A stretch of 64,000 bases of DNA from Octopus vulgaris (taxonomy: Eukaryota). Positions 5,971 to 49,108 of this stretch are shown in pieces. Every line of letters starts with the position of its first letter. The stretch's first letter is position 1. The DNA lies in NCBI GenBank assembly GCA_951406725.2, contig OX597827.1, forward strand, positions 1 through 64,000, in the 5' to 3' direction. The notes below the pieces were generated by a model. It ran no database searches. It saw only the letters and a list, made by a program, of their open reading frames with translations, and was not told the DNA's origin. A program made the position numbers and the translations under genes.

Positions 5971-7361
5971 CAACTCTTCCACTCCTATTACATGATTTAA
6001 TTAGTAATTCAGTTCTCAACCTAATTAATTGCATCGTTTTGGCAATGATGATCGAGATGTAAGCTACATTTCGAGCTAAAATAATTGTAAATTGATTCTT
6101 TAAAATAGTTATTTCAAAGTTTTTGAGGTAAAAAATGGCAGCGTAAGGCGAAAGAGTGACTTTGAATCAAAATATCTCAGTTATTTCCAAAGAAAAATGT
6201 GTAGATTAATCAAATTTTTAAAAAATGTCTTCATGGGGAAGACTCTTTAAGTAAAAATCCCGTTATAAAAATCAACCAAGAAAAAAGCAGTGTGGCTTTT
6301 AGCGACGTAGAATTGGTAACAATTAAATCCAAGTCGAAGTATTCTAATGCTTCTGATATTTGTTTGCCAATGATTTCCAATAAAGTTTGATGAGCTATCC
6401 TTGTTCTTCATTTTCTTCTGAAGTGTTCAAATTGTAAAGTCTATTTATAGGTACCCAGTATATATCTTCTACCAAAAGGTGACCATTGTTTTATGTACTT
6501 TGAATAGGATTCTGAAAGTTATGTACTAGCCTGATGATGGTCAATGTTATTGCAATAATTAATATTTTATTGTTTTGAAAACCTTTTTTATCATTACACT
6601 GCTACTGGAGTATATACTTTTACTATTCCTTGTTTCAGTTATCAGATTGCGGCCATTCTGGAGCAGTAGCTTTAAGCGATTCCTCGAACAAATCATCCTT
6701 AGTACTGAATTTTTAAAATCTGGCACTTAATCAGTCGGATACCTTTTGCGGAACCACTAAGTTACGGGGGGCGTAAACAAACCAATATTTGTTCTGAAGC
6801 GTTGGTGGGGATAAACACAAAGACAAGCACACGCATATATATATATATATATATATATGGAAGGAATCCACACAGTTTCCTGCAGCAAATTTACTCACAA
6901 CGCTTAGTTGACCCAAGGTTATAGTAAATGTTATTTGTCCAATGTGCCACACAGTTGGACTAAAGAATCCATGGATGTGAGAAGTAATTTTCCTGCCACA
7001 GAACCTTGCCTGTATGGTGAATGATATTTCTACCATAGATGAGAATGTTACCTAAAACCCATATTGTGCACATAAGAAAGTCTCCTTGCTATTTTGTTAG
7101 TTTTGTATTTTATCCTCTTCCATCTTTTGCTGTTTTGTTATCAGGTTTTCTTTTAGGATAATTAAGTTAGATTGAAGGAACCTATTCTTGTTCAAACAAC
7201 ACTTCCCACAGAACTATAAAGAGAAATAAACAATTGTAGTGTGTAATATCAGCATTTACCCTGTTAGTGTTGACTAAAAAGCAATTTAGTACTGAACAAG
7301 AGTAAACAGATTTATTTAATTTTACTTATTTTAAAGTGTGTAATATTTGTCTCTTTTTCAG

Positions 7362-20499: not shown

Positions 20500-21008
<509 letters not shown>

Positions 21009-21010
<2 letters not shown>

Positions 21011-21509
21011 AAAAGCAATAAAGATTCAAGTTAATTTAAATGAATTTACTTGAATATGGTACCTAACTTAGATGCACCAAAAAAAACTATACTGTTTTAG
21101 CAATACAATAATGTGGGGTGATTATAAGCGAGAAAGAAGCAACAAGAATGGATAGGTTTTTAGTACAATCGTTTCATACAAGGACAGGCTTTATTAAAAG
21201 TTGCAAAAATTACAGCATATAAACGTGTCCTGTACTCATCAGCTAAAATACATGTGAGTTCTCTAGACATCCTATTGGTTGAGGCTATACTCATGACGTA
21301 GATAATTAAGTAACATAAACAGATTTCCAAAGCTCATTAAAGTTCTATAAAGATGATGTACAGTCTTATCACAGAATTTAAAAAAAGTTTTAACAGCATC
21401 ACAGAGAAGGTGTTTATATGCTGTAATTTTTGCAACTTTTAATAAAGCCTGTCCTTGTATGAAACGATTGTACTAAAAACCTATCCATTCTTGTTGCTTC
21501 TTTCTCGCG
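21009..21509 (-). mobile_element. Short 3' remnant of the element-B PLE family with inverted tail and hammerhead (21158-21248)
   Basis: Reverse complement of ~31000-31412. Bases ~21412-21508 invert ~21127-21224. Confidence 0.85.
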
Positions 21510-21527
21510 TATATATATATATATATA

Positions 21528-21840
21528 TTTATTATATAGAAGGAGCTTCTACAGGACTAGAACTGTTTCATTCAAAAGAAATCATCAGGAAGCTAGTTGA
21601 CAAGAGTTGTTTTGGCATTTATACATTTAGGCAGGTTTAAAGGGGTGGTGGTGGGGGACTTTTTGGGGGTAGGCATGGCGCAAGACTATCATTCTTAGGG
21701 GAGTGGTCAAAGGAAACGGTGGTAAAGTAGATAAAAGAATAAATAAAAGAATAAAAGAATAAATAGAAAAATAGAGTTTTAGGTAAATAAGGAGACTCTC
21801 ACTTATACATATACATATATATATACACCCACATATTCAT

Positions 21841-21895
<55 letters not shown>

Positions 21896-23642
21896 TATAT
21901 ATACATATATATATACATATACATGCACACACATGTCCATATACACACACATATACACACATATGTGTACATATACATACACACACATACACACATATAT
22001 GCATACATAGACATATACATATATACACATACACATACTTACACATACACACATACACCCATATACACATGTACATATGTACCCATATACATGTATCTAC
22101 GTACACGCCCATACCCATACTCATACATACACTTATATATGTCTACACACATATATATATATAAATATATAAATATATAAATATATAAATAAGAGGGGAT
22201 ATACACACCCATACACACACGCTCACATATCCATATATATGTATATATATATACATATATATATATATATACATATACATACACATATATATATATATAC
22301 ACACACACCCATATACACATATATATACATACATACATACACATACAAACCCATACATATATATACATATATACATATACATATGTATATACATATATAT
22401 ACATATATACATACATATACATATATATATACACACTGGCACATATATATACATACACACACATACACATGCATATACATGCACACACATACACACACAT
22501 TTTTATTCCCTTATTTTAATTTTATTATTGCCTTTGTTTAAATCTTTATTTTTATCTTGAACTCGGTCAGCCATCCCGGCTGTCGTCCCAAGGGACAGTC
22601 TAAAGAGTCCATTTATCTTTCTACTCACTGATACGAACACAAACACTCACTCACGCACACACACTCACACGTACACTCATACAAATACACACATGCACGT
22701 GTTATATTCATACATACATTCACGTATATACACATACGTACACGTACCTACAGATTCATATCTACACGCATACACACACATACCTCAATACACCCACAGA
22801 AGACTAGTCCATACATATACTCTAATAAATATATATACACATATACATATATACATATACACATACATACACATACATACACATACATACACATACATAT
22901 ATATATATGTATATATATATATGTTGGTCCCGGGTTGATTCGGGGTTAACCACAGTAAATAAGGTACTCAATACATAGCAGAGTAAAATTAATTTATTAT
23001 ATAGAAGGAGCTTCTACAGGACTAGAACTGTTTCATTCAAGAGAAATCTTCAGGAAGCTAGTTAACAAGAATTGTATTGGCATTTATACATTTAGGCAGG
23101 TTTAAAGGGGTGTTGGTGGGGGACTTTTTGGGGGTAGGCATAGCGCAAAATATCATACTTGGGGGAGTGGTCAAGGAGTCAGTGTTAAATTAGATAGAAG
23201 AATAAATAAAAAAATATAAAAATATATATTAAAAAAAGGGAATAGAGTTTTAGGTAAATAAGGAGATTCTCACTTATACCTATGCACATATGTATACATA
23301 TATACACACACATATACAAACATTTATACATATACATACACACATACATACACACACACATATATACATATATATACACTTACACATACATATACATATC
23401 TACACATACACATATATGTATACATACACACACTCACATGCATACACGTATACACACATGTATATATACACACACGACCACACATACATATACACACAGA
23501 AAAATATATATACACATACACACACACAGTCACATACACGCATACACACACATATATCCACACACACACATGCACACACAGCCCACTAGTCCCTATATAC
23601 ACATATATACACATACACACATATATATACACACACATACAT

Positions 23643-23708
<66 letters not shown>

Positions 23709-24111
23709 GTGTACCTATGCATACCTACACATACACACAATATATACACATACAAATACAGACCCATTCCCTAATTTTAATTTTATTATCTTCATTTATT
23801 ACTTTTGTTATCTTTGACCGCTGGTCACAAAAATATTGGCTATGACAGCCAGTCCATTTATCTGTCTACTGGAAAACAAGCACTCATTCACTCACGCACA
23901 CTCTTTAGCACGTACACTCACTCATTCGTACACTCATACACATACACGCTCCCACGCGTTATATTCATACATACATACATCTACATACATTCACGTATAT
24001 ACACATACGTACGCGTACCTACAGATTCATGTCTACACTCTTAGAAGGCTAATCTATACATATACACCAATAAATATAAATACAAACACATACATATACA
24101 CCTACATACAA

Positions 24112-24150
<39 letters not shown>

Positions 24151-24365
24151 CACATATATACACATATATATATACATACATACACATATACATACACATA
24201 TATACACATATACACACATACACATACATACATATACACACATACACATATATACGTATACATACATACATTTATACACATACACACACCCACACGTATA
24301 CATATACATACATATATATACGCGCATGCATACACATACGCATATACATATACATACATACACAT

Positions 24366-24414
<49 letters not shown>

Positions 24415-24604
24415 CACACACATACACATACATACATACATATACAAATATACGCACACACATACATACATACTCATACACACATACACACACACACACA
24501 TGTACATGCGCACCCACACACACACACACACGCGCGCATCCATATATACACATAAGCACACACATGCTATATGTATATATATATATATATACATACATAT
24601 ATAT

Positions 24605-24647
<43 letters not shown>

Positions 24648-25027
24648 CATACACATATACATACATACACACATACACATATACACATATATATGCGTAC
24701 ACATACACACACACGCGCGCGCATCTATATATACACATAAGTACATACATACATAAATGTATACATATGTTTATACATATGCATACATATACACACACAC
24801 ACGCGCCTCCTTATATACATAAATACATACATGCATACAGACATATACATATATACATACATGCATACTCGAATAATAAATAATAAATATATATACGTGC
24901 AGTTACCCATTATACAGACGGATACATACATATAAACATACACATATATACCTATTTACACATATGTATATATACATACATACACACATAACTCTACATA
25001 CCTACATATACATAAACACACAAGCGT

Positions 25028-25074
<47 letters not shown>

Positions 25075-25145
25075 TACACACATATACATATACACATACC
25101 TCTACATATATATATATATATATACACACACATATATATATATAT
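21528..25145 (-). mobile_element. Two tandem copies of a non-coding, microsatellite-rich hammerhead-bearing element (element C)
   Basis: Copies start at 21528 and 22926 and share the HHR plus GGGGGACTTTTTGGGGGTAGG block. They are the reverse complement of ~31770-33981. Confidence 0.8.
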
Positions 25146-25151
25146 ATATTT

Positions 25152-26964
25152 AGACCATATTGTGTCTTTCTCTTCAGGAAGAAATAGGAAATCCGTTGGA
25201 AAAAACAAAAACAGAACAGAGGCGGAGCAAAACAAATCGAACTAGGCTCCTAAGAGCCCATGGCAAAACTGTTTATCAGTGTATGTTGAGAACCGGTGGT
25301 TGAAGATTTTATCGGGTCAGGCAGCGGTCATTCCTGTGGGTGAGGGTGTGTAGATGTTCTTTGTGACCGAGAATAAAGTTCTGACTATTTAAAGAATATT
25401 TGATGTATTATAAGGGGCGAGAAAAAATGGTTTGTAATTCCCTTTGGTAAGCAGATTAGAACTAACCTCCCCCTCATTTTTAGACAAGCCATCGCCAATA
25501 ACTTCCCCAGAAATTCCAAATATTACTCCACGGTTAACTCGCATAAAGTTAGGATAGCTTTCTCCAACACTAAAAACCTCGCCCAGATAATCGCCTCCCA
25601 TAATAATAGGCTGCTTACTAAGACCCTATCACCTTTTTCCGGAGGCACAGCCTCTTCCGCTCCCGGTTTAATGCTCAGTAGGAATAATTATAGTAGTAAT
25701 AATGATATGAGAGCCAGTACAGTGACTCATAATCTCAGCTCCAGCCAGGGATTACACACTGGGGGTATAGTTATGAATGGGGGTGTTGTAGTTGACGGTA
25801 ACAATGGCAGTAGGGTAGAGAGTCCCAATAGCAACCCCAGCATCATTTCCGGCAATAGCAGCACCACGGGCACTAGCAATGACAGCACTCTGATAGATAG
25901 TGGAGAATCAGGGGTTATTCCGTTAGTTAATAGTGACGTAGTGGAAAATAAAGTAGTAAGCGGCTGCAGTTCTCGTAACAAATATAGTGACAGTAACGCA
26001 ATTCTAATTTCAGAAACTAATCCTAGCAGAATAAGATTCACGTCGGCGAACTCCAAGATCAGAAACGCCGTCTACCAATGCAAGGTTTACACGGACTCAG
26101 ATGTCTACACTTATGAAGGGGCCTCATCGTCAAGATTGGCTTTGCAAATCTCCAATCATTACGCAACTTTTCGAGACATGAATAAACGCCAGACCACGGG
26201 ACTCAGCAAGCTAATATGGCGATTGAAGGATACGAACTCAAGCTACAGGCTGGAATGGTCAATTTTGTCGGTGGCCCTCCCATTTGATAGGGGCAGAAGG
26301 AAGTGCAGCCTTTGTGTCTCCGAACTCTTCCATATATTGTTCGCCAGAGATAATTACGATTAACCACTGCAAGGGGAATTACTCCTGTGAGATAAACGGG
26401 GCTTTGTTTTTGACGACGGGGGGTTTCTTTGACAAGGCATGATTAGACGAACACACGCACACATAAAACATAAAATATTTTTCTGCCACCCAACGGTTTT
26501 TACTGCAGTAGCCATTGTGTAGAGCTGTTTAACAACTGACAGCCGAGCGATCAAACGCACACACGTACACAAAAAATGTTTTCTACCCCTTGACGGAGTT
26601 TTCAGCAGTGACCAGTGAATAGCGCTTCTTGCCAACCTGCGCCAGCACACATATATAGAACAGTAAACACACACATGTCTCTAAGTAGATTTTTCTCGCC
26701 CCTTATAATACATCAAATATTCTTTAAATAGTCAGAACTTTATTCTCGGTTACAAAGAACATCTACACACCCTCACCCACAGGAATGACCGCTGCCTGAC
26801 CCGTTAAAATCTTCAACCACCGGTTCTCAACATACACTGATAAACAGTTTTGCCATGGGCTCTTAGGAGCCTAGTTCGATTTGTTTTGCTCCGCCTCTGT
26901 TCTGTTTTTGTTTTTTCCAACGGATTTCCTATTTCTTCCTGAAGAGAAAGACACAATATGGTCT
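25152..26964 (+). mobile_element. PLE-derived element A: ~275-bp inverted repeats (25152-25426 / 26690-26964) around a GIY-YIG ORF
   Basis: The arms are near-perfect reverse complements, and a hammerhead sits at the right arm. Confidence 0.85.
25671..26363 (+). CDS. GIY-YIG endonuclease with Ser/Asn-rich leader, no RT (C-terminus probably frameshifted)
   Basis: AVYQCKV...YTYEG...NHYATFR...TTGLSKLIW...LEWSIL...KCSLCVSE aligns by eye with the EN of the Penelope ORF at 37602. Confidence 0.75.
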   Translation: MLSRNNYSSNNDMRASTVTHNLSSSQGLHTGGIVMNGGVVVDGNNGSRVESPNSNPSIISGNSSTTGTSNDSTLIDSGESGVIPLVNSDVVENKVVSGCSSRNKYSDSNAILISETNPSRIRFTSANSKIRNAVYQCKVYTDSDVYTYEGASSSRLALQISNHYATFRDMNKRQTTGLSKLIWRLKDTNSSYRLEWSILSVALPFDRGRRKCSLCVSELFHILFARDNYD

Positions 26965-27022
26965 CAATATTCAATCGGATTTTGGTAAATTGTGCCTTTC
27001 GAAACACGTGTAGAATGAAATA
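26930..27022 (+). ncRNA. Type I hammerhead ribozyme
   Basis: TATTTCTTC-CTGAAGA-stem II (GAAAGACACAAT...ATTGTGCCTTTC)-GAAA-CACGTG (palindromic stem III)-TA^GAATGAAATA. Confidence 0.85.
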
Positions 27023-27227
27023 AAACGATTTCTGTTCAATCTTCGTTCAGCTCCATTTCTTCAATTCACCAATAATACTATAATTCAATTATCCACACCA
27101 ACGCACGGTTGCAACACCATATGGTTGTACCTCCAACCGTGCTGTCTTCTGCTGTGATTTTTGCTACCAAGGTATCGGTTAAACTTTTGATTAATCTGCT
27201 ACAAGATTATTCATCTTTCTATTTCAC

Positions 27228-27277
<50 letters not shown>

Positions 27278-27463: not shown

Positions 27464-27496
<33 letters not shown>

Positions 27497-28737
27497 AGCG
27501 AGAATGAAGCAACAAGAATGGATAGGTTTTTAGTACAATCGTTTCATACAAGGACAGGTTTTATTAAAAGTTGCAAAAATTACAGCATATAAACGTGTCC
27601 CGTACTCATCAGCTAAAATACATGTGAGTTCTCTAGACATCCTAGTGGTTGAGGCTATACTCATGAAGTAATGTAGATAATTAAGTAACATAAACAGATT
27701 TCAAAAGTTCATTAAAGTTCTTTAAAGATGATGTACAGTCTTATCACAGAATTTTAAAAAAAGTCTTAATAGCATCACAGAGAAGGTGACCCAATCCATA
27801 GTGCACATATGAATTTCCAGAGATATGATGAGGGATTACATACTCACAGAAGGCAAATTTATCCATTGTTAATTACAACGAGGTGGGTTTCAATTCCTGC
27901 TTATTAGCATTACAGAGAGGGTGAATTAATCCTTTGTATAGATGCACAATTTCCAATGGTGTAGGTGTAAATTTCCAAGGAATTTCATATTCACAGGCGA
28001 TAAATTTATCAATGGTTGAACACAATGAGGTAGGTATCAATTCTTGCTATATGATTAGGTATTTGCCACATTAATCACATTACTGCTATTTACAAGAGGC
28101 TGTAGCTATTTAACTTTTAAAGGCTGAAGGGCTTACTAGAGCTGTATAGAATAGAAAAGGGAGGGGCATAGAAGAAAAGTGAGAAAATAAAAGAAAGAAA
28201 ATAAAAGAGGAGGGAGCAAAAAGGGGGGAAAGGGGGACTCAAAGAGAAGAGAAAAGGAAAAAGAGAATAAGAAGAAGAAAAGGAAAAAAAAAGAGAAAAG
28301 AGAAAGAAAAAGAAATAGGGAAGGAAGGGAAAAAAGAAAAAGAAAAAGAAAAAAAAAGAAAAAAGAAAAAGAAGAAAGAAGAAAAGAAAAAGATAAAAAG
28401 GGTTCTAGTTATACAGAAGAATTAGTAGACGACAAGTCTGGTTTTAGTTTACAGGCATCTAGGAATTAGAGGAGAATATTATTCTTTGACCAGTTAAAAT
28501 AGCTAATTTATTGCTGTTGAAATCAGCTATGAATTTAAAGAGAATCTAAAGAGATAACACAGTTAGGGGTTTCGGGGTCAGATGCTAAAATCACCAGAAA
28601 ATACATTAGGGAAAACTAGGTATAATCTTATCAAAAAGTCATTAAAATTTACTTACTTATTTATTCATTTTATTGTCTTAAGGAGTTGCCGTTATTATTC
28701 ATACATTGACGGACTACAGGAAAGATAGAAATATAAA

Positions 28738-28768
<31 letters not shown>

Positions 28769-28773
28769 TCAGC

Positions 28774-29646
28774 ATGAATACCAATAGCAATTGTAATAAT
28801 ACTACCAACAATAAAAGCAGCAATAGTAACTATCAAAACATAGGTGAAATTAGTAACCACAGAATGACTAATAGCATTAACATTAATAGTAATAATAGCA
28901 ATGCCGATATTAGTAGAAGGAATAATGTTAATAATAGAAATAATAGAAATAGGGAAAATAGAGAAAATAAGGAGAATGAAAATATTAGTGATATCTATAA
29001 CAACAATATGCAGTCGGATAAAAAGACTAGCAATAATATTAACATTACCAATAATATAAGAAATCATGGTAGGACTTTAGATCTAAATAATGAAACAGAA
29101 GGATCAAGAAATAATAGCAATACTTTAGATATCAGCACCAACTATAGAAATGATAATCAAAATAACAGGAACCTAAAACATCTACCCAAGAATAATCCAA
29201 AGCCTGAAGGTATTCCTCCTGTGTGTAAGTGTAGAATAAAATCAAAATGCCCGGCACCTGGTCTATGTGGAGAAAATAATGTAATCTATAAATGTACCAT
29301 ATCCACGGAGAATAACAAATACTATTACCTTGGATGTACAATAAATTTTTTAGCTAGAGTTAGAAATCACATCTCGACTTTTAAATTACGTCATAAAGCT
29401 GGTACCACCACGCTTTCAAACAAAATCTGGGAACTCAAAAATAATAATAAAAATTATAACCTTAATTGGGAAATAGTTAGGAGAGCAATTCCGTATAAAA
29501 ATAGTAGGGTTGGTTGCCAACTATGCTCCATGGAGACATATGAAATTCTAAAGCATAGAAAACATAGAAACCTATTGAATAACCATATCGAACTAGGTCA
29601 AGTTTGTGTCCACGCTAAATTGAAGACTTTAAAATATTTTAAATGA
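28774..29646 (+). CDS. Asn-rich leader + CxCx5C linker + intact GIY-YIG endonuclease, no RT
   Basis: CKCRIKSKCPAPGLC, VIYKC...YYLG, RVRNH, TTLSNKIW, CQLC..E and LLN......CVH are all colinear with the Penelope EN at ~37602-38070. Confidence 0.88.
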   Translation: MNTNSNCNNTTNNKSSNSNYQNIGEISNHRMTNSININSNNSNADISRRNNVNNRNNRNRENRENKENENISDIYNNNMQSDKKTSNNINITNNIRNHGRTLDLNNETEGSRNNSNTLDISTNYRNDNQNNRNLKHLPKNNPKPEGIPPVCKCRIKSKCPAPGLCGENNVIYKCTISTENNKYYYLGCTINFLARVRNHISTFKLRHKAGTTTLSNKIWELKNNNKNYNLNWEIVRRAIPYKNSRVGCQLCSMETYEILKHRKHRNLLNNHIELGQVCVHAKLKTLKYFK

Positions 29647-31174
29647 TTAGAATATTCGTAACTAGATAGATAGATATAACCTGATTTCTACTGGTATAGC
29701 ACTGCTTTAAGTAGATAACTAAGAGTTCTCACACTACAGTTATCTTTTTCCTATATCTACATCAGTTTTTTGAGAACAGGTAAATGAATAGCACTTATTC
29801 GCCACTTAATTGAGGCTTTATTTAATTTCAAACTCACAATTTTTAAATTTTTTAAATTCTTAATTTTAAATCTTAATTGTAATTTTTAATTTTAGTTCCT
29901 AACTTAATCTAATTTAATTAGCATAACTCTAATAAATTAAAATGAGTTACTATAGACCCATTGTTCTATTCCAAAATTAAATAAATGAGACTATTCCCTC
30001 GGTGATAATATGATTATCTTCATTATGATAGACAATCCCCTAACACCTTTTAATGATCTTCTAAGATTTGACCTGTAGTCCGTCAATGTATGAATAATAA
30101 CGGCAACTCCTTAAGACAATAAAATGAATAAATAAGTAAGTAAATTTTAATGACTTTTTGATAAGATTATACCTAGTTTTCCCTAATGTATTTTCTGGTG
30201 ATTTTAGCATCTGACCCCGAAACCCCTAACTGTGTTATCTCTTTAGATTCTCTTTAAATTCATAGCTGATTTCAACAGCAATAAATTAGCTATTTTAACT
30301 GGTCAAAGAATAACATTCTCCTCTAATTCCTAGATGCCTGTAAACTAAAACCAGACTTGTCGTCTACTAATTCTTCTGTATAACTAGAACCCTTTTTATC
30401 TTTTTCTTTTCTTCTTTCTTCTTTTTTCTTTTTTCTTTTTTTTTTTTCTTTTTCTTTTTCTTTTTCCCTTCCTTCCCTATTTCTTTTTCTTTCTCTTTTC
30501 TCTTTTTTCTTTTTCTTCTTCTTATTCTCTTTTTCCTTTTCTCTTCTCTTTGAGTCCCCCTTTCCCCCCCTTTTTGCTCCCTCCTCTTTTATTTTCTTTC
30601 TTTTATTTTCTCACTTTTCTTCTATGCCCCTCCCTTTTCTATTCTATACAGCTCTAGTAAGCCCTTCAGCCTTTAAAAGTTAAATAGCTACAGCCTCTTG
30701 TAAATAGCAGTAATGTGATTAATGTGGCAAATACCTAATCATATAGCAAGAATTGATACCTACCTCATTGTGTTCAACCATTGATAAATTTATCGCCTGT
30801 GAATATGAAATTCCTTGGAAATTTACACCTACACCATTGGAAATTGTGCATCTATACAAAGGATTAATTCACCCTCTCTGTAATGCTAATAAGCAGGAAT
30901 TGAAACCCACCTCGTTGTAATTAACAATGGATAAATTTGCCTTCTGTGAGTATGTAATCCCTCATCATATCTCTGGAAATTCATATGTGCACTATGGATT
31001 GGGTCACCTTCTCTGTGATGCTATTAAGACTTTTTTTAAAATTCTGTGATAAGACTGTACATCATCTTTAAAGAACTTTAATGAACTTTTGAAATCTGTT
31101 TATGTTACTTAATTATCTACATTACTTCATGAGTATAGCCTCAACCACTAGGATGTCTAGAGAACTCACATGTA

Positions 31175-31265
31175 TTTTAGCTGATGAGTACGGGACACGT
31201 TTATATGCTGTAATTTTTGCAACTTTTAATAAAACCTGTCCTTGTATGAAACGATTGTACTAAAA
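31175..31265 (+). ncRNA. Type I hammerhead ribozyme (minus-strand copies at 27528-27618 and 21158-21248)
   Basis: TTTTAG-CTGATGA-GTACGGGACA...TGTCCTTGTAT-GAAA-CGATTG-TA^CTAAAA. Confidence 0.85.
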
Positions 31266-31408
31266 ACCTATCCATTCTTGTTGCTTCATTCTCGCTTATA
31301 ATCACCCCACATTACTGTATTGTTAAATCAGTATAGTTTTTTTGGTGCATCTAAGTTAGGTACCATATTCAAGTAAATTCATTTAAATTAACTTGAATCT
31401 TTATTGCT

Positions 31409-31440
<32 letters not shown>

Positions 31441-31445
31441 GCATA

Positions 31446-31480
<35 letters not shown>

Positions 31481-31485
<5 letters not shown>

Positions 31486-31756
31486 CCTATCTACACATAT
31501 GTATATATACATACATACATGCATATACACATAACTCTACGTACCTACATATACATAAACACACAAGCGTACACATATACATATATATACATATACATAC
31601 ATACATACATACATACATACATACATGTATGTATGTATGTATGTATGTATGTATATGTATATGTGTACGCTTGTGTGTTTATGTATATGTAGGTACGTAG
31701 AGTTATGTGTATGTGCATGTATGTATGTATATATACATATGTGTAGATAGGTATAT
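31481..31756. repeat. Near-perfect spacer-less palindrome centred on CATG at 31624-31627
   Basis: TACCTATCTACACATATG...AACTCTACGTACCTAC...CACAAGCGTACAC is mirrored after the centre. Confidence 0.85.
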
Positions 31757-31769
31757 ATATATATATATG

Positions 31770-32039
31770 TGTGTGTGTATGTTTATATGTATGTTTCCGT
31801 CTGTATAAAGGGTAACTGCATGTATATATATTTATTATTTATTACTTGAGTATGCGTTTGTATGCATGTATGTATTTATGTATATAAGGAGGCGCGTGAG
31901 TGTGTGTATGTGTATGCATTTGAATAAACATATGTACACATTTATGCATGTATGTACTTATGTGTATGTATGTATATATATATATATATATATGTGTATA
32001 TATATATATGTGTAGAGGTATGTGTATATGTATATGTGT

Positions 32040-32093
<54 letters not shown>

Positions 32094-32485
32094 ATGCTTG
32101 TGTGTTTATGTATATGTAGGTATGTAGAGTTATGTGTGTATGTATGTATGTATATATACATATGTGTAAATAGGTATATATGTGTATGTTTATATGTATG
32201 TATCCGTCTGTATAATGGGTAATTGCACGTATATATATTTATTATCTATTATTTGAGTATGCATGTATGTATATATGTATATGTCTGTATGCATGTATGT
32301 ATTTATGTATATAAGGAGGCGCGTGTGTGTGTGTATGTGTATGCATATGTATAAACATATGTATACATTTATGTATGTATGTACTTATGTGTATATATAG
32401 ATGCGCGTGTGTGTGTGTATGTGTACGCATATATATGTGTATATGTGTATGTGTGTATGTATGTATATGTGTATGTATATGTATG

Positions 32486-32550
<65 letters not shown>

Positions 32551-33159
32551 GTATGTGTATGTATGTGTATGTATGTGTATATGTATATATGTATATGTGT
32601 ATATATATTTATTAGAGTATATGTATGGACTAGTCTTCTGTGGGTGTATTGAGGTATGTATGTGTATGCGTGTAGATATGAATCTGTAGGTACGTGTACG
32701 TATGTGTATATACGTGAATGTATGTATGTATGAATATAACACGTGCATGTGTGTATTTGTATGAGTGTACGTGTGAGTGTGTGTGCGTGAGTGAGTGTTT
32801 GTGTTCGTATCAGTGAGTAGAAAGATAAATGGACTCTTTCGACTATCCCTTGGGACGACAGCCGGGATGGCTGACCGAGTTCAAGATAAAAATAAAGATT
32901 TAAACAAAGGTAATAATAAAATTAAAATAAGGGAATAAAAATGTGTGTGTATGTGTGTGCATGTATATGCATGTGTATGTGTGTGTATGTATATATATGT
33001 GCCAGTGTGTATATATATATGTATATGTATGTATATATGTATATATATATGTATATACATATGTATATGTATATATGTAGATATATGTATGGGTTTGTAT
33101 GTGTATGTATGCATGTATATATATATGTGTATATGGGTGTGTGCGTATATATGTGTATG

Positions 33160-33203
<44 letters not shown>

Positions 33204-33535
33204 CATATATATGGATATGTGAGCGTGTGTGTATGGGGGTGTATATCCCCTCTTAGTTATATATTTATATATATATGTGTGTGTAGACATATATAAGTGT
33301 ATGTATGAGTATGGGTATGGGCGTGTACGTAGATACATGTATATGGGTACATATGTACATGTGTATATGGGTGTATGTGTGTATGTGTAAGTATGTGTAT
33401 GTGTATATATGTATATGTCTATGTATGCATATATGTGTGTATATGTGTGTATGTATATGTACACATATGTGTGCATATATGTGTGTGTATATGGACATGT
33501 GTGTGCATGTATATGTATATATATATGTATATATA

Positions 33536-33602
<67 letters not shown>

Positions 33603-33981
33603 ATGAATATGTGGGTGTATATATATATGTATATGTATAAGTGAGAGTCTCCTTATTTACATAAAAATCTATTTTTCTATTTATTCTTTTATTCTTTTAT
33701 TTATTCTCTTATCTACTTTACCACCGTTTCCTTCGACCACTCCCCTAAGAATGATAGTTTTGCGCCATGCCTACCCCCAAAAAGTCCCCCACCACCACCC
33801 CTTTAAACCTGCCTAAATGTATAAATGCCAAAACAACTCTTGTCAACTAGCTTCCTGATGATTTCTTTTGAATGAAACAGTTCTAGTCCTGTAGAAGCTC
33901 CTTCTATATAATAAATTAATTTACTCTGCTATGTATTGAGTACCTTATTTACTGTGGTTAACCCCGACTCAACCCGGGACC
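31770..33981 (+). mobile_element. Element C copy in opposite orientation (right arm of the large palindrome)
   Basis: Reverse complement of 21528-22920 and parts of 24700-25140. Ends ...AACCCGGGACC followed by (TA)n. Confidence 0.8.
33849..33899 (+). ncRNA. Type I hammerhead ribozyme (minus-strand copies at 21544-21594 and 23009-23059)
   Basis: AGCTTC-CTGATGA-TTTCTTTTGAAT-GAAA-CAG TTCTAGTC CTG-TA^GAAGCT. Confidence 0.85.
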
Positions 33982-34750: not shown

Positions 34751-35096
34751 TGAAGGCGCATGGCTCAGTGGTTAGAGCGTCGAGCTTACGATCGTGAGGT
34801 TGTGAGCTCGAATCCCGGGCCGGGCTGCGTGTTGTGTTCTTGAGCAAGGCACTTTATTTCACGTTGCTCCAGTTCACTCAACTGTAGAAATGAGTTGCGA
34901 CGTCACAGGTGCCAAGCTGTATCGGCCTTTGTCTTTCCCTTTGATAACACCGGTGGCGTGGAGAGGGGAGGCCGGTATGCATGGGCGACTGCTGGTCTTC
35001 CATAAACAACCTTGCCCGGACTTGTGTCTAGGAGGGTAACTTTCTAGGTGCAATCCCATGGTCATTCATGACCGAAGGGGGTCTTTACCTTACCCT
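34751..35096 (+). mobile_element. tRNA-derived SINE with 12-bp target-site duplication
   Basis: Same family as 20621. TAGACTCCTTAG occurs at 34739-34750 and 35097-35108. Confidence 0.9.
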
Positions 35097-35379
35097 TAGA
35101 CTCCTTAGCCACAAAAAGACATGGTCTTTGCATTGACAGTGGGGAGAACATTCCCCACGGTAAGCCAGATGGATTAGATTAGCATGGTAATTTCTTATAG
35201 GAAGTTAATACTCATCAGCAATGCTCACTCCATTACGGCTGGTGGAGGCTAACTCACGCCTCTCAGTATCATTGAGAATGCCATAGGAATTAGGGATTGA
35301 TTTCACAAAATAGCAATGTGAAGATTATAAAATATTTAAGGTGGCTAACACACAATTTAAAACCAACGAGGTAATTGTA

Positions 35380-37212: not shown

Positions 37213-37247
<35 letters not shown>

Positions 37248-37601
37248 ATAAAACGGTAAGATAACAAAAGAAAGAAAGAGACCTCAATATTATGTAAATA
37301 GAGGAAATTTATCTATACAATATGTTACATTACTCGGTAGTCAAGATAAAACTCTGAGTTTCAGATGCCGAAGTGGAAATCCACAACACCATCTCTTCGG
37401 TTATCTGGCTATTTGAAAACGTTATGAAAAAATACCGTTAAAAATGAAGGGAAATTACTCTGTTATAACTCTGCTTTGCCTGCGTACTTATACATCGCTC
37501 GCATTTTTCGTCATAAAAATTATATAAAAATACATAAAAAATATATAAAAATATATAAAAATATATAAAATCTTCTTGGGACATAACACAGAAAGCATGT
37601 T

Positions 37602-39727
37602 CTATCCGTTTTCTTTAGGGGACCAAAAACGTAACAGAAATTTAGTCACATGTGGGCATGATCCGAAAAGTTCTGTCCTTGTATTTAGACATGTGGTAGG
37701 GTCTAAGCTGCTTTTCCAGATAAGCCATCTCTCCATGTCGCATAAACCGCACCTTCCGCTGCCGTTAGTATAGGGCTTACATCTGGCCAAAATCTTCCAT
37801 TGTATGTTATAATCGACACCTTTATCTCTTAAAGACCAAATATGATTGGATAATTGTGTCGCTTTTCTTTTGTTCCAGTGCCTAAAGCTCAAAGTGTGGT
37901 TATTGAACCTGGCCTTGAAATTACCCTCTGTCAGGCCCACGTATTTCTTCGTCAAAACGGTGTCTTTAGTGGTTATAGAGTTTACGGTAGCCTCATATAT
38001 GATGGTCTTGGACATGCAAGCTCCATTTAGCGGGCACAATTCTTTATTCCTGCATGAACAGCTGTTTTCTTCTTGTGTTTTTTGTATGTTATGATTGATT
38101 ATGTTTTTAAAATTGGTAGTTGAACTAAAACTAATTTTTAAATTGTGTCTATTGAAGAGTTTCCTATAAGCATGGTTAACTGGAAAATGTCTATCTATCA
38201 GTGCTAGGAAATATTTACCTATATTGAAGGCCACCTCGGGTGAGTAAGGGGGCGTAAACCAGATGACCTTCCTATTTCTATTATTCCTTTTCTTTATTGT
38301 TGGGCTGGTGATAGGTGTATATTTTATTTTTTCGCTAAAACCACTATCTTTTAAAGCTTTATTATAAACTGGGGCAACGCTATTGAAGATGTCCTCATTA
38401 GATGAGAGGCTAGAAATCCTCTTACTAATATTTTTAACTAAATTTTTGAATACTATAGGGGGATGGCATGAACCTACATTAATATAACTTAGTCTATCAT
38501 TGGGCTTCCTATAAGGCTTATAAATATTATTATTAAGATCTAAGGAAACGTCTAAGAAATTGACAACCGTCAGGTTAGTGTCTATAGTTATACTAAGTCC
38601 GAAGTGTTTCATTAACTGGATAATATCCTTCCTAAAACGATCTTGTGCTGGTCCATTTGTATTAGCTGTTAAGGCGAGGGCATCATCTTTGTAGATGGCG
38701 AAATGTACGTTAGGGAATGTCTTACTGAAGGTATCTAGGAGAAAGAGTCCAATTAGATCACAGATGCCTGCCCCATCATATGAACCCATGCTCACATCGA
38801 AAGCGCCCTCCGTGTCGGTGTTTTTTACCCACTTTGCATTCTCACTGAAAAGTAATGTCTTTCTAGCATGGAAGATTATATCCTTATCATTGGTACTAAT
38901 TTCTATGAAGTCACTAGCGAAGATTAGGGCTTTATCTAGCAGTTCTTTAGAGATAGAGGCATAAAAATCAACAATATCGAATTGTGTAAACCTCGCTTTT
39001 TTCTTATTCTTAATAGCTTTAAACCAGTCTACGACTTCTATACTATTGGACCATTGCACTAGCCTAGTATCGGTCTTAATTTTCGTATTTATTTTATCTA
39101 AAATTTCTTTGCTAATAATCCCTAGTTCTGACTTGGCTGGGTTGATAAGCCTACATTTAGGATTGGAAAGGAAGTTTTCTTTGTGGTCTTTAATAGTAAT
39201 AAAGGCCTCTTTTTGGGGGAGGGTTTCTATTTTTTTATCTAATTTAAGTTTAGCGGCGATGACGCTAGCTTCTTTATTAATTTCGTTATATGTCTGTGCC
39301 CTAGCCTTAGTATAATTATTAATGATGCTGTTGTATAAGAGTTGTGTGTATTTGCTGTTATCTACCAGGTATAAGTTCTTGGTTTTATCCGAAAAAAGTG
39401 CTTTTTTCTTGGAGCTTTTTATATGATCAATATCTTTCTTCAATTTATGTTGGAAAATGTTAAAAGACTTACGAAACTTTATTTTGCTCATGATCTTCAG
39501 CAGGTCCGCTTCGAAATCTTCCAAGCCTTTAATCCTAGGAGGGAATTTTTGGATTTTATCCGATAGCAAATGTTTTCCTTGGTGTTCGCTTCTGTGTCAA
39601 AAAAGAAAGCCTTCCATCTCATACGCTTAATTACATCAGTAATTTTTTGCAGAAGTTTCTTAGAGTAAAAATCCTTTGATGGGATCGGTATATTTTTCAT
39701 AGAATAATCTATGTGATATGCGTCCAT
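37602..39727 (-). CDS. Penelope RT + C-terminal GIY-YIG polyprotein (one frameshift near 39550)
   Basis: DKT motif, FDIVDFY, MGSYDGA, YKDD, FLDV, CSCRNKELCPLNGAC linker, IIYEA...YVG, CGLC and CPH. Confidence 0.93.
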
Positions 39728-41641
39728 ATTAGATTCTTTTGTTTGTGAGAGTCCTCAACCGATGTTAGGCGATAATCCCAAAAAGGTCGTATTAGCTCTT
39801 AGTTGAGAATAACGTCGTCCGGGAGGTGATTTATTGATAAAACGGTAAGATAACAAAAGAAAGAAAGAGACCTCAATATTATGTAAATAGAGGAAATTTA
39901 TCTATACAATATGTTACATTACTCGGTAGTCAAGATAAAACTCTGAGTTTCAGATGCCGAAGTGGAAATCCACAACACCATCTCTTCGGTTATCTGGCTA
40001 TTTGAAAACGTTATGAAAAAATACCGTTAAAAATGAAGGGAAATTACTCTGTTATAACTCTGCTTTGCCTGCGTACTTATACATCGCTCGCATTTTTCGT
40101 CATAAAAATTATATAAAAATACATAAAAAATATATAAAAATATATAAAAATATATAAAATCTTCTTGGGACATAACACAGAAAGCATGTTCTATCCGTTT
40201 TCTTTAGGGGACCAAAAACGTAACAGAAATTTAGTCACATGTGGGCATGATCCGAAAAGTTCTGTCCTTGTATTTAGACATGTGGTAGGGTCTAAGCTGC
40301 TTTTCCAGATAAGCCATCTCTCCATGTCGCATAAACCACACCTTCCGCTGCCGTTAGTATAGGGCTTACATCTGGCCAAAATCTTCCATTGTATGTTATA
40401 ATCGACACCTTTATCTCTTAAAGACCAAATATGATTGGATAATTGTGTCGCTTTTCTTTTGTTCCAGTGCCTAAAGCTCAAAGTGTGGTTATTGAACCTG
40501 GCCTTGAAATTACCCTCTGTCAGGCCCACGTATTTCTTCGTCAAAACGGTGTCTTTAGTGGTTATAGAGTTTACGGTAGCCTCATATATGATGGTCTTGG
40601 ACATGCAAGCTCCATTTAGCGGGCACAATTCTTTATTCCTGCATGAACAGCTGTTTTCTTCTTGTGTTTTTTGTATGTTATGATTGATTATGTTTTTAAA
40701 ATTGGTAGTTGAACTAAAACTAATTTTTAAATTGTGTCTATTGAAGAGTTTCCTATAAGCATGGTTAACTGGAAAATGTCTATCTATCAGTGCTAGGAAA
40801 TATTTACCTATATTGAAGGCCACCTCGGGTGAGTAAGGGGGCGTAAACCAGATGACCTTCCTATTTCTATTATTCCTTTTCTTTATTGTTGGGCTGGTGA
40901 TAGGTGTATATTTTATTTTTTCGCTAAAACCACTATCTTTTAAAGCTTTATTATAAACTGGGGCAACGCTATTGAAGATGTCCTCATTAGATGAGAGGCT
41001 AGAAATCCTCTTACTAATATTTTTAACTAAATTTTTGAATACTATAGGGGGATGGCATGAACCTACATTAATATAACTTAGTCTATCATTGGGCTTCCTA
41101 TAAGGCTTATAAATATTATTATTAAGATCTAAGGAAACGTCTAAGAAATTGACAACCGTCAGGTTAGTGTCTATAGTTATACTAAGTCCGAAGTGTTTCA
41201 TTAACTGGATAATATCCTTCCTAAAACGATCTTGTGCTGGTCCATTTGTATTAGCTGTTAAGGCGAGGGCATCATCTTTGTAGATGGCGAAATGTACGTT
41301 AGGGAATGTCTTACTGAAGGTATCTAGGAGAAAGAGTCCAATTAGATCACAGATGCCTGCCCCATCATATGAACCCATGCTCACATCGAAAGCGCCCTCC
41401 GTGTCGGTGTTTTTTACCCACTTTGCATTCTCACTGAAAAGTAATGTCTTTCTAGCATGGAAGATTATATCCTTATCATTGGTACTAATTTCTATGAAGT
41501 CACTAGCGACTTATGTATTTTTATATAATTTTTATGACGAAAAATGCGAGCGATGTATAAGTACGCAGGCAAAGCAGAGTTATAACAGAGTAATTTCCCT
41601 TCATTTTTAACGGTATTTTTTCATAACGTTTTCAAATAGCC

Positions 41642-41704
41642 AGATAACCGAAGAGATGGTGTTGTGGATTTCCACTTCGGCATCTGAAACTCAGAGTTTT
41701 ATCT
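41642..41704 (+). ncRNA. Variant hammerhead in the Penelope terminal repeat (minus-strand copies at 37344-37406 and 39933-39995)
   Basis: AGATAA-CCGAAGA-GATG...CATCT-GAAA-CTCAGAG-TT^TTATCT. The core has C in place of U4. Confidence 0.55.
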
Positions 41705-42260
41705 TGACTACCGAGTAATGTAACATATTGTATAGATATATATATATATATATATATAAGTAAATATATATATAATCTACAGGATATCAAGTAGTTATGC
41801 AGTTTCAAACGGCTAAATTTAAATGAACAATACAAACATTACATCAATTTAAATGCAATGCCTTGTTCACCTGCATAAATAAAGAAATAGAATTTTAATA
41901 AGTAGGGTACTTTAATGTAATTGTTCTCAAATATTTTAAGAGAGCAAGAAGATGGAGAAATTCATATTGTCGCTATTTTAGTTAAGAATAGACTACACTT
42001 CCAAGAATTGCATGGAGCCTGGTTGGGGTGGGGGTCCTTGTGTTGTAAGGGATTGTAATTCATTTCTAAATCATTTATCTCTTTACAAACTACTAAATGA
42101 AAAACTAGAAATCTGTCTATTTTGAATAAATATATATGCTCTCCGTATATGTTTGCAATACTTCATGTATCATTGTCCTCAAATCAGCCAGCAGGTGGTC
42201 CAAACAATTTATTTCCAACATTAACTACTACTGCTGTTGCTGCTGCTGCTGCTGCTACTG

Positions 42261-44026: not shown

Positions 44027-45311
44027 GTGAGCGAGCAAATGTTTTTAAATGACTTTTACAGTAGTAGAAGTAGCAGGATGAGAAGAAGTAATTTTTGTGA
44101 GTGACTTTCTGTCTGTTTAAATACGACCACTCTCGTGGGGGTGGGGGTGTTGAGTGTGTATGTGCCTGTTCCATTATGACTGTCCTGTGTGTGTGTGTGT
44201 GTTTGTAATTACAATGATTTATCAAAAGGTAATGCAACCTATTCTCCCGTTTGAGTCCTCCAGGAATGTGTCCATCTCGTTCAACGGCAAATCATTTGAC
44301 TCATTTATGGAAACGTTATGAAAGAATTTATTACTTTGGAGAGTTGAGTTCATTATTGTAATATCGTTAAAAGCACGTTTTCGTAAACATTCTGCAGACA
44401 GGCTGAGTAGAGAGAAGCAGAAAAACAACAGGGATGCGCCTGATGTGTGTTTTTTTTCTTTTTAGGGAGCCGGTTTCTGTTTGTGTTAGTAGATTTCGTG
44501 GGAGTGTGTTTGGAGCATGTATAGGTGACAATGTTTTCAAAGTGCTGCCATGCGGTCTCAATATGAGAGGAATTGAGAGTAAAAGACCAGTCGATGGAAG
44601 ACAGATCCTTTCTGATTGTTCCCCAGTCCGCTTTGTGGAAGTTTATGTTGTCAAATGGGTGCCATGGAGTGGGATTGGCTGGTTTGGTTTTTATATGTCG
44701 GGAATTAAGATTGCAGAGTACCATGTCGTGGTCTGAGAGGAGAGTTTTTCGACTGAAATACTGTGAACGTAGCTAGAGTGATTGGTCAATACCAGATCCA
44801 AGATCGTTTTATTCTGTCTCGTTGGTTCGAGCACTAGCTGAGTCAGGAAATACTCATCCATTAGATTAAAGAGCAGTTCTGCTGCTGCTCTATCTGATGT
44901 AGAGCACTTGCCTAACTTCAGAGTATTTGTGGGCCAGTTCACATGAGGGAGGTTAAAATCATCACCCATCACTAGTATGTTTCCGGAGTGGTACTTCCGA
45001 AGGAAGGACTTGACTTTGCTAAGGCACTCTTCAAAGTACTTTAGAGGTGCCTGGGGAGGCCTGTAAAGACCAACAATGGTTATTTCCTTGGCTTTGTTGT
45101 ATAGTGATACCGATTCACAGTAGCCATTGGAAAATATGTCCTTGGCATCAAGTGAAAAGGAGTCATGGATAAAGATGGCTGTCCCTCCCTTATTTTGGTC
45201 TGTGCGATCCGCACGAACAATGGTGAAATCTTTTATTTTCACCTCTGCGTCCATATGGGTGTTGTTCAGGTGAGTCTCGGTAAGGATAAAGAAAGGGAAG
45301 CAATGTGCCAT
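44005..45311 (-). mobile_element. Decayed LINE APE-endonuclease region (CR1/L2-like)
   Basis: LTETHL, RADR..KGGTAIFI, GLYRPP, MGD.FNLPHVNW, EPTR..ILDLVLT and NFHKADW motifs. Confidence 0.88.
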
Positions 45312-46379
45312 TTCGGCAAGCCAACTCTCTATATATGGGATCTTCCATTTATATCCTTTTATTTACACGATTTTTTTTATTTCATGTTCATTTCATTCAT
45401 CGTTTACAATGCTCTCTTCCCCCCCACACACACACTCCTTCTCTCTCTCACTCACATTCACACACACACAGATGGAATCAAACACCACGACATGAAGGAA
45501 AAGAGAAAAAGAGAGCACTTTTGGCGAGTGAGCAAAATATTGGTTTGAAAGCTGGACAGAGAAGCTAAAGGAGATGGACAGGAAGTCAAGAAAGGTCCTA
45601 ATAATGTATGGAGCCCATCATCCACGTGCAGACCTCGATCGCCGATACACGAAGAGAGCGAATGGAGAAAAGGGACTGATAAGTGTGGGAAACTGCGTGC
45701 GTTTCGAACTCGAAGGCTTAATGAGATACCGAACCCAAAGAAAGGAAACCTTGTTAGTGACAGTTAGGAATGAGGGAGTATTGAAAGCAGGAAAAACGAA
45801 GGAAGAAACACAAAAAGAAATGAAGAAGAATGGCGCAAGAAGAGAGAACACAATGAATTTCCATATAACAAAAAATAGGTGGGATTGGCTGATGAAAGGA
45901 ATTCTAAAGAAAGAGACCGAGAACACTATATTGGCAGCGCAAGAGTAAGCTTTGGCCACAAACTGGAGGGTCGACATTAGAATGAGCAAGTGTCCAGGAA
46001 CTCCCACAATGCAGGCCTCAAGGAACTCCTACAAAACCTGTGATAAAGAGAAATAATAATCAAAATAAAGAAATTTGACAAAAACTAATAAGTTGCTGAA
46101 AATATGTGGAGCTCAACATCCGAAAGCAGATATCAACCGACTGTAATTAAAGAAAGACCAGACTGGGAGATGCTTAATAGCAGTAGAAGAATGTATAGAG
46201 ATGGAAAAAAAAGCTTAGCCGAGTATTTACAATGTGGCACAGAAAAACTACTAAAGACTGAATAAAAGGCAGGTAAAAGCAGACTTCTCTTGCTATAATT
46301 CTAATGAAAAGGCCTGCAAGTGTGAAAAGTGCAGAAACTGTGTCCAAAAAGCCTAAATTAAGCGACGCGAGAGAGAAAA

Positions 46380-47917: not shown

Positions 47918-49108
<1,191 letters not shown>

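What the first reader, a model, noticed from the sequence alone, without database searches (positions are those of the whole stretch)
27493..31412. Element B: intact GIY-YIG endonuclease without reverse transcriptase, in a young HHR-bearing element
Seen in sequence: a 290-aa ORF of ~145 aa Asn-rich sequence followed by the CxCx5C linker and a complete GIY-YIG domain with Arg, Glu, Asn and CxxC/H residues intact. It has a ~1.75-kb 3' region with a hammerhead and near-identical 1.23-kb inverted arms, implying recent insertion. In the autonomous Penelope in this window the RT thumb directly precedes the same linker; here low-complexity sequence replaces it. Known: PLEs are described as RT+EN or RT-only (EN-minus). 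Inference: an EN-only PLE class that supplies its own nuclease and borrows RT in trans, or half of a bipartite system. Caveat: the 5' end is cut by the inversion, so an upstream RT cannot be excluded from this copy.
Basis: partly seen in the sequence, partly recalled or inferred. Interest (0 to 1): 0.75.

Follow-up and report, generated by a model that had tools for sequence, protein, structure and literature searches.

The report
Truncated Hydra-type retrotransposon with long spacer
This is a recently inserted jumping gene of a known family whose DNA-cutting enzyme looks intact but whose front end was cut off on insertion, so the missing copying enzyme is more likely lost from this copy than absent from the family, although an enzyme-sharing pair of elements remains possible.

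Summary
The anatomy is confirmed: a 290-aa ORF (28774-29646) with 150 Asn-rich residues, a CxCx5C linker and a GIY-YIG domain with Tyr, Arg, His, Glu and Asn intact; a type I hammerhead (cleavage after 31259); 1.23-kb inverted arms with 2 substitutions; (TA)n flanks; and a second short copy at 21010-21513. These features define the published Hydra clade of Penelope-like elements, already known in Octopus. No RT remnant lies in this copy. But 'low complexity replaces RT' is not shown. At the window's three other inverted junctions the body is 5'-truncated. Neighbouring element A, and database proteins P0071 and P0014, keep the RT thumb and carry 81-126-aa low-complexity spacers before the same nuclease. 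Best reading (0.6): a 5'-truncated RT+EN Hydra with an unusually long spacer and 3' region. For EN-only (0.25): an in-frame TAG sits 6 nt past the junction, no thumb appears in 183 codons, and element A is young yet lacks the catalytic Arg and Asn, so it could be a complementary partner.

The parts
27493..28720 (-). Inverted 5'-truncated copy of the element's own 3' region (inverted pseudo-LTR arm); starts ~112 nt inside the 3' end; carries a mirror hammerhead (core at 27612, minus)
   Evidence: reverse complement of 30072-31300, 2 substitutions in 1224 bases
28721..28773 (+). 53 nt of body between the inversion junction and the ATG: in-frame TAG at 28726-28728, then an AAT run in frame with the ORF; 64% A, like the coding spacer; probably the cut end of a longer sequence
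28774..29223 (+). Asn-rich low-complexity coding segment, 150 aa, 33% Asn; best read as an expanded thumb-to-EN spacer; homologous to the N-terminal part of P0001 (40 of 93 identical; 0 of 1000 shuffles reach the score)
29224..29268 (+). Hydra-type CxCx5C linker (C151, C153, C159) plus conserved C165
   Evidence: motif defined in PMC8557442 section 11
29269..29646 (+). GIY-YIG endonuclease domain, no CCHH, with Y172, Y185, G187, R195, H199, CxxC 248-251, E254, N269, CxH 278-280; stop at 29644-29646
29647..31412 (+). 1766-nt non-coding 3' region, T-rich, with a pyrimidine tract at about 30393-30618; no RT remnant; only low-complexity frames reach 60 codons
31175..31265 (+). Type I hammerhead motif with a 60-nt extended stem II and a short quasi-palindromic stem III; predicted cleavage after GUA at 31259
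   Evidence: same layout as Hydra rows in File S2 of PMC8557442; activity not tested
31301..31412 (+). 112-nt 3' tail absent from the inverted arm, ending at a (TA)n tract; same arm start and same 3' end in copy B2
21010..21513 (-). Second, independent insertion of the same family (B2): 403-nt 3' fragment with hammerhead plus ~102-nt inverted arm, in (TA)n; 13 substitutions in 402 bases against B
25146..27229 (+). Element A, comparator and candidate partner: inverted arm 25146-25426, body cut in the RT thumb, ORF to 26363 = thumb + ~125-aa spacer + EN lacking Arg, Asn, CxCx5C and CxH; hammerhead core 26939
37246..41741 (-). Element D, comparator: canonical Hydra RT+EN unit of 2589 nt (37246-39834) preceded by a truncated tandem copy and an inverted arm; one frameshift near 39550

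Best explanation
Element B is one recent insertion of a Hydra-clade Penelope-like retrotransposon whose full-length form encodes RT, thumb, a very long Asn-rich spacer and the GIY-YIG nuclease in one ORF. Mechanism: the RT-EN protein binds its RNA, the EN nicks a (TA)n tract, RT primes on the nick and copies from the 3' end (31412); synthesis stopped at about 28721, inside the spacer, and a second strand primed ~112 nt inside the 3' end gave the 1.23-kb inverted arm. RT was lost from this copy by truncation. Shown: anatomy, fold, residues, truncation at the other three junctions, long spacers in thumb-bearing relatives. Inferred: the upstream RT, the nicking and priming steps (from PLE biology as described in PMC8557442), and that the TAG at 28726 reflects a one-base slip or junction filler in this copy.
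For: (1) At all 3 other inverted junctions of this kind examined in the window the body is 5'-truncated: D inside RT (41509), A inside the thumb (25427), B2 in the 3' region; PMC8557442 describes frequent 5'-truncation with an adjacent inverted copy as typical of PLEs and notes it for Hydra Penelope-13_HM. (2) Long low-complexity spacers occur with the thumb kept: of 101 fetched proteins with both thumb end and EN (of 206), 8 have >=20 aa, 2 have >=80 aa (P0014 117 aa, P0071 81 aa at 52% Asn); element A has 155 codons from thumb end to the first Tyr motif against 29 in D. (3) Argonauta hians RT+EN proteins P0151, P0006 and P0197 carry low-complexity inserts around the thumb, Asn-rich in P0151 and P0197, and B+P0001 fall with P0006/P0151 outside a 19-row group (85/91, unstarred). 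(4) The 53-nt leader looks like cut coding spacer: 64% A against 34% in D's 5' UTR, AAT run in frame, and the hexamer AGAAAT is in frame 5 of 5 times inside the ORF but shifted by one base in the leader, where the frame from the junction reads KDRN. (5) The first Met of P0001 aligns 57 residues inside B's ATG, so no shared start is seen. (6) EN is better conserved than the spacer between B and P0001 (67 of 88 against 40 of 93); selection on EN is easiest to explain in a protein that acts on its own RNA (inference).
Against: An in-frame TAG lies in the body 6 nt after the junction and 15 codons before an ATG; the other junctions show only 0-2 nt of filler, so a copy-specific slip must be invoked. 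No thumb trace in 183 codons, longer than any spacer seen. A full element would be >=4.2 kb (2.69 kb body plus ~1.5 kb for D's 512 residues before the linker), whereas Hydra elements are reported as generally <3 kb. No RT-fused close relative was found among 509-2000-aa proteins (0 of 55 candidates; weak by the tool's own note), and the only close relative, P0001, also lacks RT. Tree support for kinship with the Argonauta proteins is weak and the bootstrap had not settled.
Confidence: 0.6

Rival explanations
1. B is an RT-less Hydra derivative that encodes only the nuclease from ATG 28774 and is copied by another element's RT; element A (thumb kept, EN degenerate) may be the complementary RT donor, the two forming a split system that integrates at (TA)n.
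For: In-frame TAG then ATG; no thumb in 183 codons; P0001 also has spacer+EN only; family has >=2 insertions in 64 kb. Element A is young (278 of 281 arm bases identical) yet has Gln for the Arg found in 194 of 198 relatives, stops before the Asn, and has lost CxCx5C and CxH, so it appears to need a nick in trans. Both A and B have unusually long hammerhead stem II inserts (54 and 60 nt). Stand-alone GIY-YIG ORFs exist in Terminons (PMC6431247 passages).
Against: 5' end is a truncation junction, so absence upstream is untested. No shared 3' sequence between A and B (7 of 200 shuffles reach the score). A's own RT is not seen beyond the thumb. D-type RT+EN elements in the same genome could supply both functions, which would remove selection on a separate EN; the window also holds a hammerhead-bearing non-coding family that shows no EN is needed to be mobilised (inference). 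P0001 is a gene model with a deviant C-terminus, probably a decayed copy.
Confidence: 0.25
2. The full element has RT upstream but in a separate ORF or exon, with the EN translated from its own ATG (a split RT / EN arrangement within one element).
For: Explains the TAG and ATG without a mutation and keeps selection on EN; PLEs retain introns and Terminons carry separate EN ORFs.
Against: No Hydra with two ORFs is listed in File S1 of PMC8557442; the leader has no pyrimidine tract for a splice acceptor (4% C, 26% T); leader resembles in-frame spacer.
Confidence: 0.1
3. The structure is an assembly fold-back or a chance ORF in AAT-rich DNA, or a domesticated host gene.
For: Arm differences are mostly homopolymer indels, as sequencing error would give.
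Against: Arm starts at the same point in two independent copies; same geometry in A and D; ORF far beyond shuffles; clear GIY-YIG fold; (TA)n flanks, hammerhead and a second copy mark a mobile element.
Confidence: 0.05

Closest known systems
Hydra clade of C-terminal EN+ Penelope-like elements (Craig et al. 2021, PMC8557442), including Hydra-1_Obim of Octopus bimaculoides
   Same: CxCx5C linker, GIY-YIG without CCHH, CxxC and CxH around the conserved E and N, (TA)n insertion, hammerhead near the 3' end, 5'-truncated body with inverted copy.
   Different: No RT seen in this copy; >=165-codon Asn-rich segment before the linker; 1766-nt 3' region; 60-nt stem II insert; 112-nt tail against 30-40 bp described for PLEs; body alone is 2.69 kb against <3 kb for whole Hydra elements.
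P0001, NCBI model 'myelin gene regulatory factor-like A' of Octopus sinensis
   Same: Asn-rich segment + CxCx5C + EN; 67 of 88 EN residues identical; sister to B at 99/98.
   Different: Starts at a Met internal to B's spacer; C-terminus departs after the WEIVR motif and lacks CxxC-E-N; the name given by the source does not describe it; DNA context not available.
Argonauta hians Hydra-like RT+EN proteins P0151, P0006, P0197
   Same: Octopod; same EN type; low-complexity inserts beside the thumb.
   Different: RT present; thumb-to-linker spacers only 22-26 aa; P0006 is 41% identical to B's EN.
Stand-alone GIY-YIG ORFs of Terminons (PMC6431247, PMC8557442 passages)
   Same: A PLE-type EN in an ORF without RT.
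   Different: Those lie inside giant telomeric Athena elements that carry RT ORFs, and have CX2-5CxxC and CCHH motifs; B has the Hydra motif set and inserts in (TA)n.
Animal non-LTR retrozymes (bioRxiv 10.64898/2026.07.22.740005)
   Same: Type I hammerhead, proposed non-autonomous PLE derivatives.
   Different: Retrozymes are tandem, non-coding; B encodes an intact nuclease.

Membership tests
Hydra-clade PLE | CxCX5C linker before the EN | tested here: met
   C151-K-C153-x5-C159
Hydra-clade PLE | GIY-YIG EN lacking CCHH, with CxxC and CxH either side of conserved E and N | tested here: met
   No Cys pair between Y172 and Y185 beyond C174; C248xxC251, E254, N269, C278xH280; fold match to I-TevI Z 11.0, rmsd 2.4, 90 aligned
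Hydra-clade PLE | Insertion into (TA)n | tested here: met
   Both ends of B and of B2 abut TA tracts
Hydra-clade PLE | Hammerhead motif near the 3' end | tested here: met
   Core and three stems by custom scan, 0 of 2000 shuffles; not found by Rfam; cleavage not assayed
Hydra-clade PLE | Pseudo-LTR / inverted 5'-truncated copy and 3' tail | tested here: met
   Arms 27493-28720 / 30072-31300, tail 31301-31412
Hydra-clade PLE | Single ORF with RT (RWK, DKT motifs) upstream of the EN | tested here: inconclusive
   No RT or thumb in this copy, but the body is cut 53 nt above the ATG; no eukaryote genome collection was on hand to extend it
Hydra-clade PLE | Length generally <3 kb | tested here: inconclusive
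   Body is 2692 nt and incomplete; it would exceed 3 kb if RT is present
Proposed EN-only non-autonomous PLE class | Defined 5' end without RT, shared by several copies | not testable with these tools
   Only one copy reaches the ORF; B2 covers 403 nt of the 3' end
Proposed EN-only non-autonomous PLE class | Conserved dedicated start codon with stop upstream | tested here: inconclusive
   TAG 28726 and ATG 28774 present; P0001 starts at a different Met
Proposed EN-only non-autonomous PLE class | Purifying selection on EN in RT-less copies (dN/dS) | not testable with these tools
   No DNA for P0001; only protein identity 67/88 against 40/93
Naiad/Chlamys (N-terminal EN) PLE | EN followed by CxC motif and RT downstream | tested here: not met
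   Stop at 29646; longest frames in the 3' region are 60-99 codons of low complexity
Non-LTR retrozyme | Non-coding tandem units each with a hammerhead | tested here: not met
   Single unit with a 290-aa ORF

The most novel reading that the evidence does not exclude
Octopod genomes hold a split Hydra system: B-type elements have dropped RT and keep a live GIY-YIG nuclease on an Asn-rich disordered arm, while A-type elements keep RT but carry a nuclease domain stripped of its catalytic Arg, Asn and two metal-binding motifs; the two complement each other in trans to retrotranspose into (TA)n. It would be a retrotransposon whose cutting and copying enzymes travel on separate, independently mobile RNAs.
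Probability: 0.15. Interest if true: 0.85.

Novelty: new variant of a known kind. Interest (0 to 1): 0.42.

Why it matters
On the likely reading it extends the Hydra clade with an octopod lineage whose thumb-to-nuclease spacer, 3' region and hammerhead stem II are all much expanded, and it warns that such elements surface in protein sets as mis-named host genes (P0001). If the family truly lacks RT, it would be a nuclease-only mobile retroelement, a form not found in the searches listed, and with element A it would make trans-complementation of PLE integration directly testable; the PLE transposition cycle is described as still undefined (PMC8557442).

Tried and rejected
Pfam scan: no GIY-YIG hit for B, weak hits for D. 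Rfam: no hammerhead in the window at E<=0.1 or in 31100-31412 at E<=10; the first regular-expression scan missed B's hammerhead because it allowed only 40 nt in stem II. Search for RT-fused relatives among longer proteins: 0 of 55 candidates. Scan of bacterial/archaeal genomes: 163 pattern matches, none confirmed. Accession and contig look-up for P0001 and six other proteins could not be made, so their genomic context is unchecked; metagenome and viral contig collections stayed unchecked. ESM Atlas: B matches unnamed and GIY-YIG clusters at 0.92-0.95; A gave no usable hit. The many 130-250-aa EN-only hits were rejected as support for an EN-only class: of 100 rows without a thumb match (of 153), 82 have <=45 aa upstream and many begin at a Met inside the thumb end; of the other 18 only B and P0001 are Asn-rich. 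3'-end similarity among A, B, C, D: none of 6 pairs beyond shuffles. The 57-row tree finished only as a quick tree; the 26-row tree left out element A and trimmed P0001 to 90 aa. Literature: searches listed no paper whose title or abstract start describes an EN-only PLE class; most hits were seen only as listings, subscription papers and Repbase/Dfam entries are not covered, and bioRxiv supplements could not be seen. Searches for I-TevI mutant data found nothing, so the essential role of the Arg is partly recalled.
Full report
1. Observation. The region 27493-31412 is bounded by (TA)n on both sides. Its left 1228 nt are the reverse complement of 30072-31300, with 2 substitutions in 1224 aligned bases and 9 gap characters confined to pyrimidine runs. 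The body runs 28721-31412. An ORF from ATG 28774 to 29646 gives 290 aa: 150 aa at 33% Asn, then CKCRIKSKC and a 140-aa nuclease. The frame is far longer than chance (longest 166 codons in 2000 shuffles; for the 165 Asn-rich codons alone 127), and the other two frames of that stretch hold 8 and 58 stops, so the low-complexity part is coding. Pfam does not call the domain, but a model built on a 75-row alignment (pLDDT 91.6) matches the I-TevI catalytic domain best of 48,161 chains (Z 11.0, rmsd 2.4, 90 residues), followed by other GIY-YIG enzymes. The superfamily layout, two Tyr motifs, a central Arg, a Glu and a C-terminal Asn (PMC1564403, passages), is met by Y172, Y185, R195, E254 and N269, each the commonest residue among 198 of 206 fetched proteins; L193 departs from a Lys found in 190 of 198. 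Activity is inferred, not shown. A type I hammerhead sits at 31175-31265; it passes a strict three-stem filter that 0 of 2000 shuffles pass, has the short quasi-palindromic stem III described for PLE ribozymes (PMC4209133, passages), but is missed by Rfam and is not the lowest-energy fold. A second insertion, 21010-21513 on the minus strand, shares the 3' end and the arm start and differs at 13 of 402 bases.

2. Identity. CxCX5C linker, no CCHH, CxxC and CxH flanking E and N, (TA)n targets and a 3' hammerhead are the stated marks of the Hydra clade (PMC8557442: abstract and introduction, section 11 in full, passages, supplement parts 1-2 and search hits), which includes Hydra-1_Obim from Octopus. 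The only close protein relative is P0001 from Octopus sinensis, so the host is probably an octopod (inference). Element D in the window is a canonical Hydra of 2589 nt whose N-terminus resembles Hydra-1_Obim by eye; it has one frameshift and a CCGAAGA ribozyme core.

3. Is RT absent from the family? It is absent from this copy: an RT+thumb profile from 28 sequences finds only A and D in the six-frame window, and a thumb profile that detects a 20-aa remnant of A (E 0.005) finds nothing in B's three frames. But the body begins at an inversion junction only 53 nt above the ATG. At the three other such junctions examined the body is truncated: in RT for D, in the thumb for A, in the 3' region for B2. 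The claim that low complexity replaces RT rests on comparison with D alone. Element A, directly left of B, has a clear thumb (E 9e-16), then a Ser/Gly/Asn-rich spacer and the EN: 155 codons from thumb end to the first Tyr motif against 29 in D, and at least 183 in B. Of 101 fetched proteins with thumb end and EN, the median spacer is 6 aa, 8 are >=20 aa and 2 are >=80 aa, among them P0071 (81 aa, 52% Asn) and the RT-bearing P0014 (117 aa). Argonauta RT+EN proteins carry low-complexity inserts before and after the thumb, Asn-rich in P0151, and group loosely with B in a 26-row EN tree (weak, bootstrap unsettled, A left out). The leader has the base make-up of the coding spacer, not of D's 5' UTR; its AAT run is in frame; and AGAAAT, in frame 5 of 5 times within the ORF, is one base off in the leader, where the junction frame reads KDRN. 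P0001 shares the spacer (40 of 93 identical, above all 1000 shuffles) but starts at another Met.

4. Results against this reading. The TAG at 28726 is in the body and in frame; other junctions show 0-2 nt of filler, so a copy-specific slip must be assumed, though slips are present in B's arms and in D. B's spacer would be the longest seen. A full element would be over 4.2 kb against generally under 3 kb. No RT-fused close relative turned up (0 of 55), and P0001 has no RT. Most notable, element A is young (3 differences in 281 arm bases) with an open frame of 311 codons, yet its EN has Gln at the Arg column (194 of 198 others Arg), ends before the Asn, and lacks CxCx5C and CxH. Several coordinated losses suggest a lineage-level change, although Arg to Gln alone could be one base change. 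A therefore seems to need a nuclease in trans, which B-type or D-type elements could supply. No shared 3' sequence links A and B.

5. Mechanism. Most likely (0.6): ordinary Hydra target-primed reverse transcription at a (TA)n nick, 5' truncation within a long spacer, and an inverted second copy starting 112 nt inside the 3' end. Shown: structure and motifs. Inferred: upstream RT, nicking, priming. Rivals: RT-less EN-coding derivative (0.25, of which about 0.15 for true complementation with A-type elements); RT in a separate upstream ORF or exon (0.1); artefact or host gene (0.05). These weights are judgement, not computed.

6. Known versus new. It works like a Hydra element and meets five tested Hydra features; the RT feature is inconclusive. 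Stand-alone PLE nucleases are known inside Terminons (PMC6431247, passages), and non-coding hammerhead-bearing PLE derivatives are known as retrozymes (bioRxiv 10.64898/2026.07.22.740005, first of five parts: abstract, introduction, part of methods). Six searches listed no description of an EN-only PLE class; most papers were seen as listings only, and repeat databases and bioRxiv supplements were not seen. The labels A, B2, C and D are mine. Verdict: a real, young, atypical Hydra variant; EN-only status unproven and less likely than truncation. Interest 0.42.

Noticed in passing
window 25146-27229 (+): Element A: young Hydra-type insertion with RT thumb, ~125-aa spacer and an EN lacking catalytic Arg and Asn and both outer Cys motifs; hammerhead at 26939 with 54-nt stem II; no fetched protein is closer than ~40-46% over the EN.
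   Followed up: partly
window 37246-41741 (-): Element D: inverted arm + truncated copy + full 2589-nt unit, 1 substitution in 1675 tandem bases; one frameshift near 39550 and a ribozyme core CCGAAGA in both tandem copies.
   Followed up: partly
window 21520-25145 (-) and 31413-33981 (+): Family C: non-coding, microsatellite-filled units with a compact hammerhead near the 3' end (cores at 21566, 23031 minus; 33855 plus), in tandem and inverted arrangement; A and B sit in TA tracts between the units. Looks like a retrozyme-type non-autonomous PLE derivative.
   Followed up: partly
window 35177-35218 and 55948-55989 (-), 55274-55320 (-): Further hammerhead-like cores passing the looser filter; the first two lie in a dispersed repeat (35097-35376 ~ 55867-56147, 90%).
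   Followed up: no
window 5685-6062 (+): Short frame with a YIDG motif resembling an RT fragment, possibly a Naiad-type PLE remnant (recalled resemblance; no Pfam RT hit, not matched by the Hydra RT profile).
   Followed up: no
window 51932-54965 (+), 44353-45362 (-), 48257-49027 (+): Broken LINE remnants: RVT_1 at 53155-54336 (E 2e-32), AP-type endonuclease at 44691-45359 (E 3.5e-11), and a further LINE-like C-terminal frame without a Pfam hit.
   Followed up: no
window 491-4314: Tandem array of ~1.03-1.05-kb units, 93-99% alike, each with a (TTC)n tract.
   Followed up: no
window 20621-20951 and 34753-35081: Two 94%-identical ~330-nt copies of a SINE-like repeat; B2 is inserted in the TA tract at the end of the first. 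ARAGORN not run.
   Followed up: no
P0001: An O. sinensis gene model named 'myelin gene regulatory factor-like A' is a Hydra spacer+EN fragment.
   Followed up: partly
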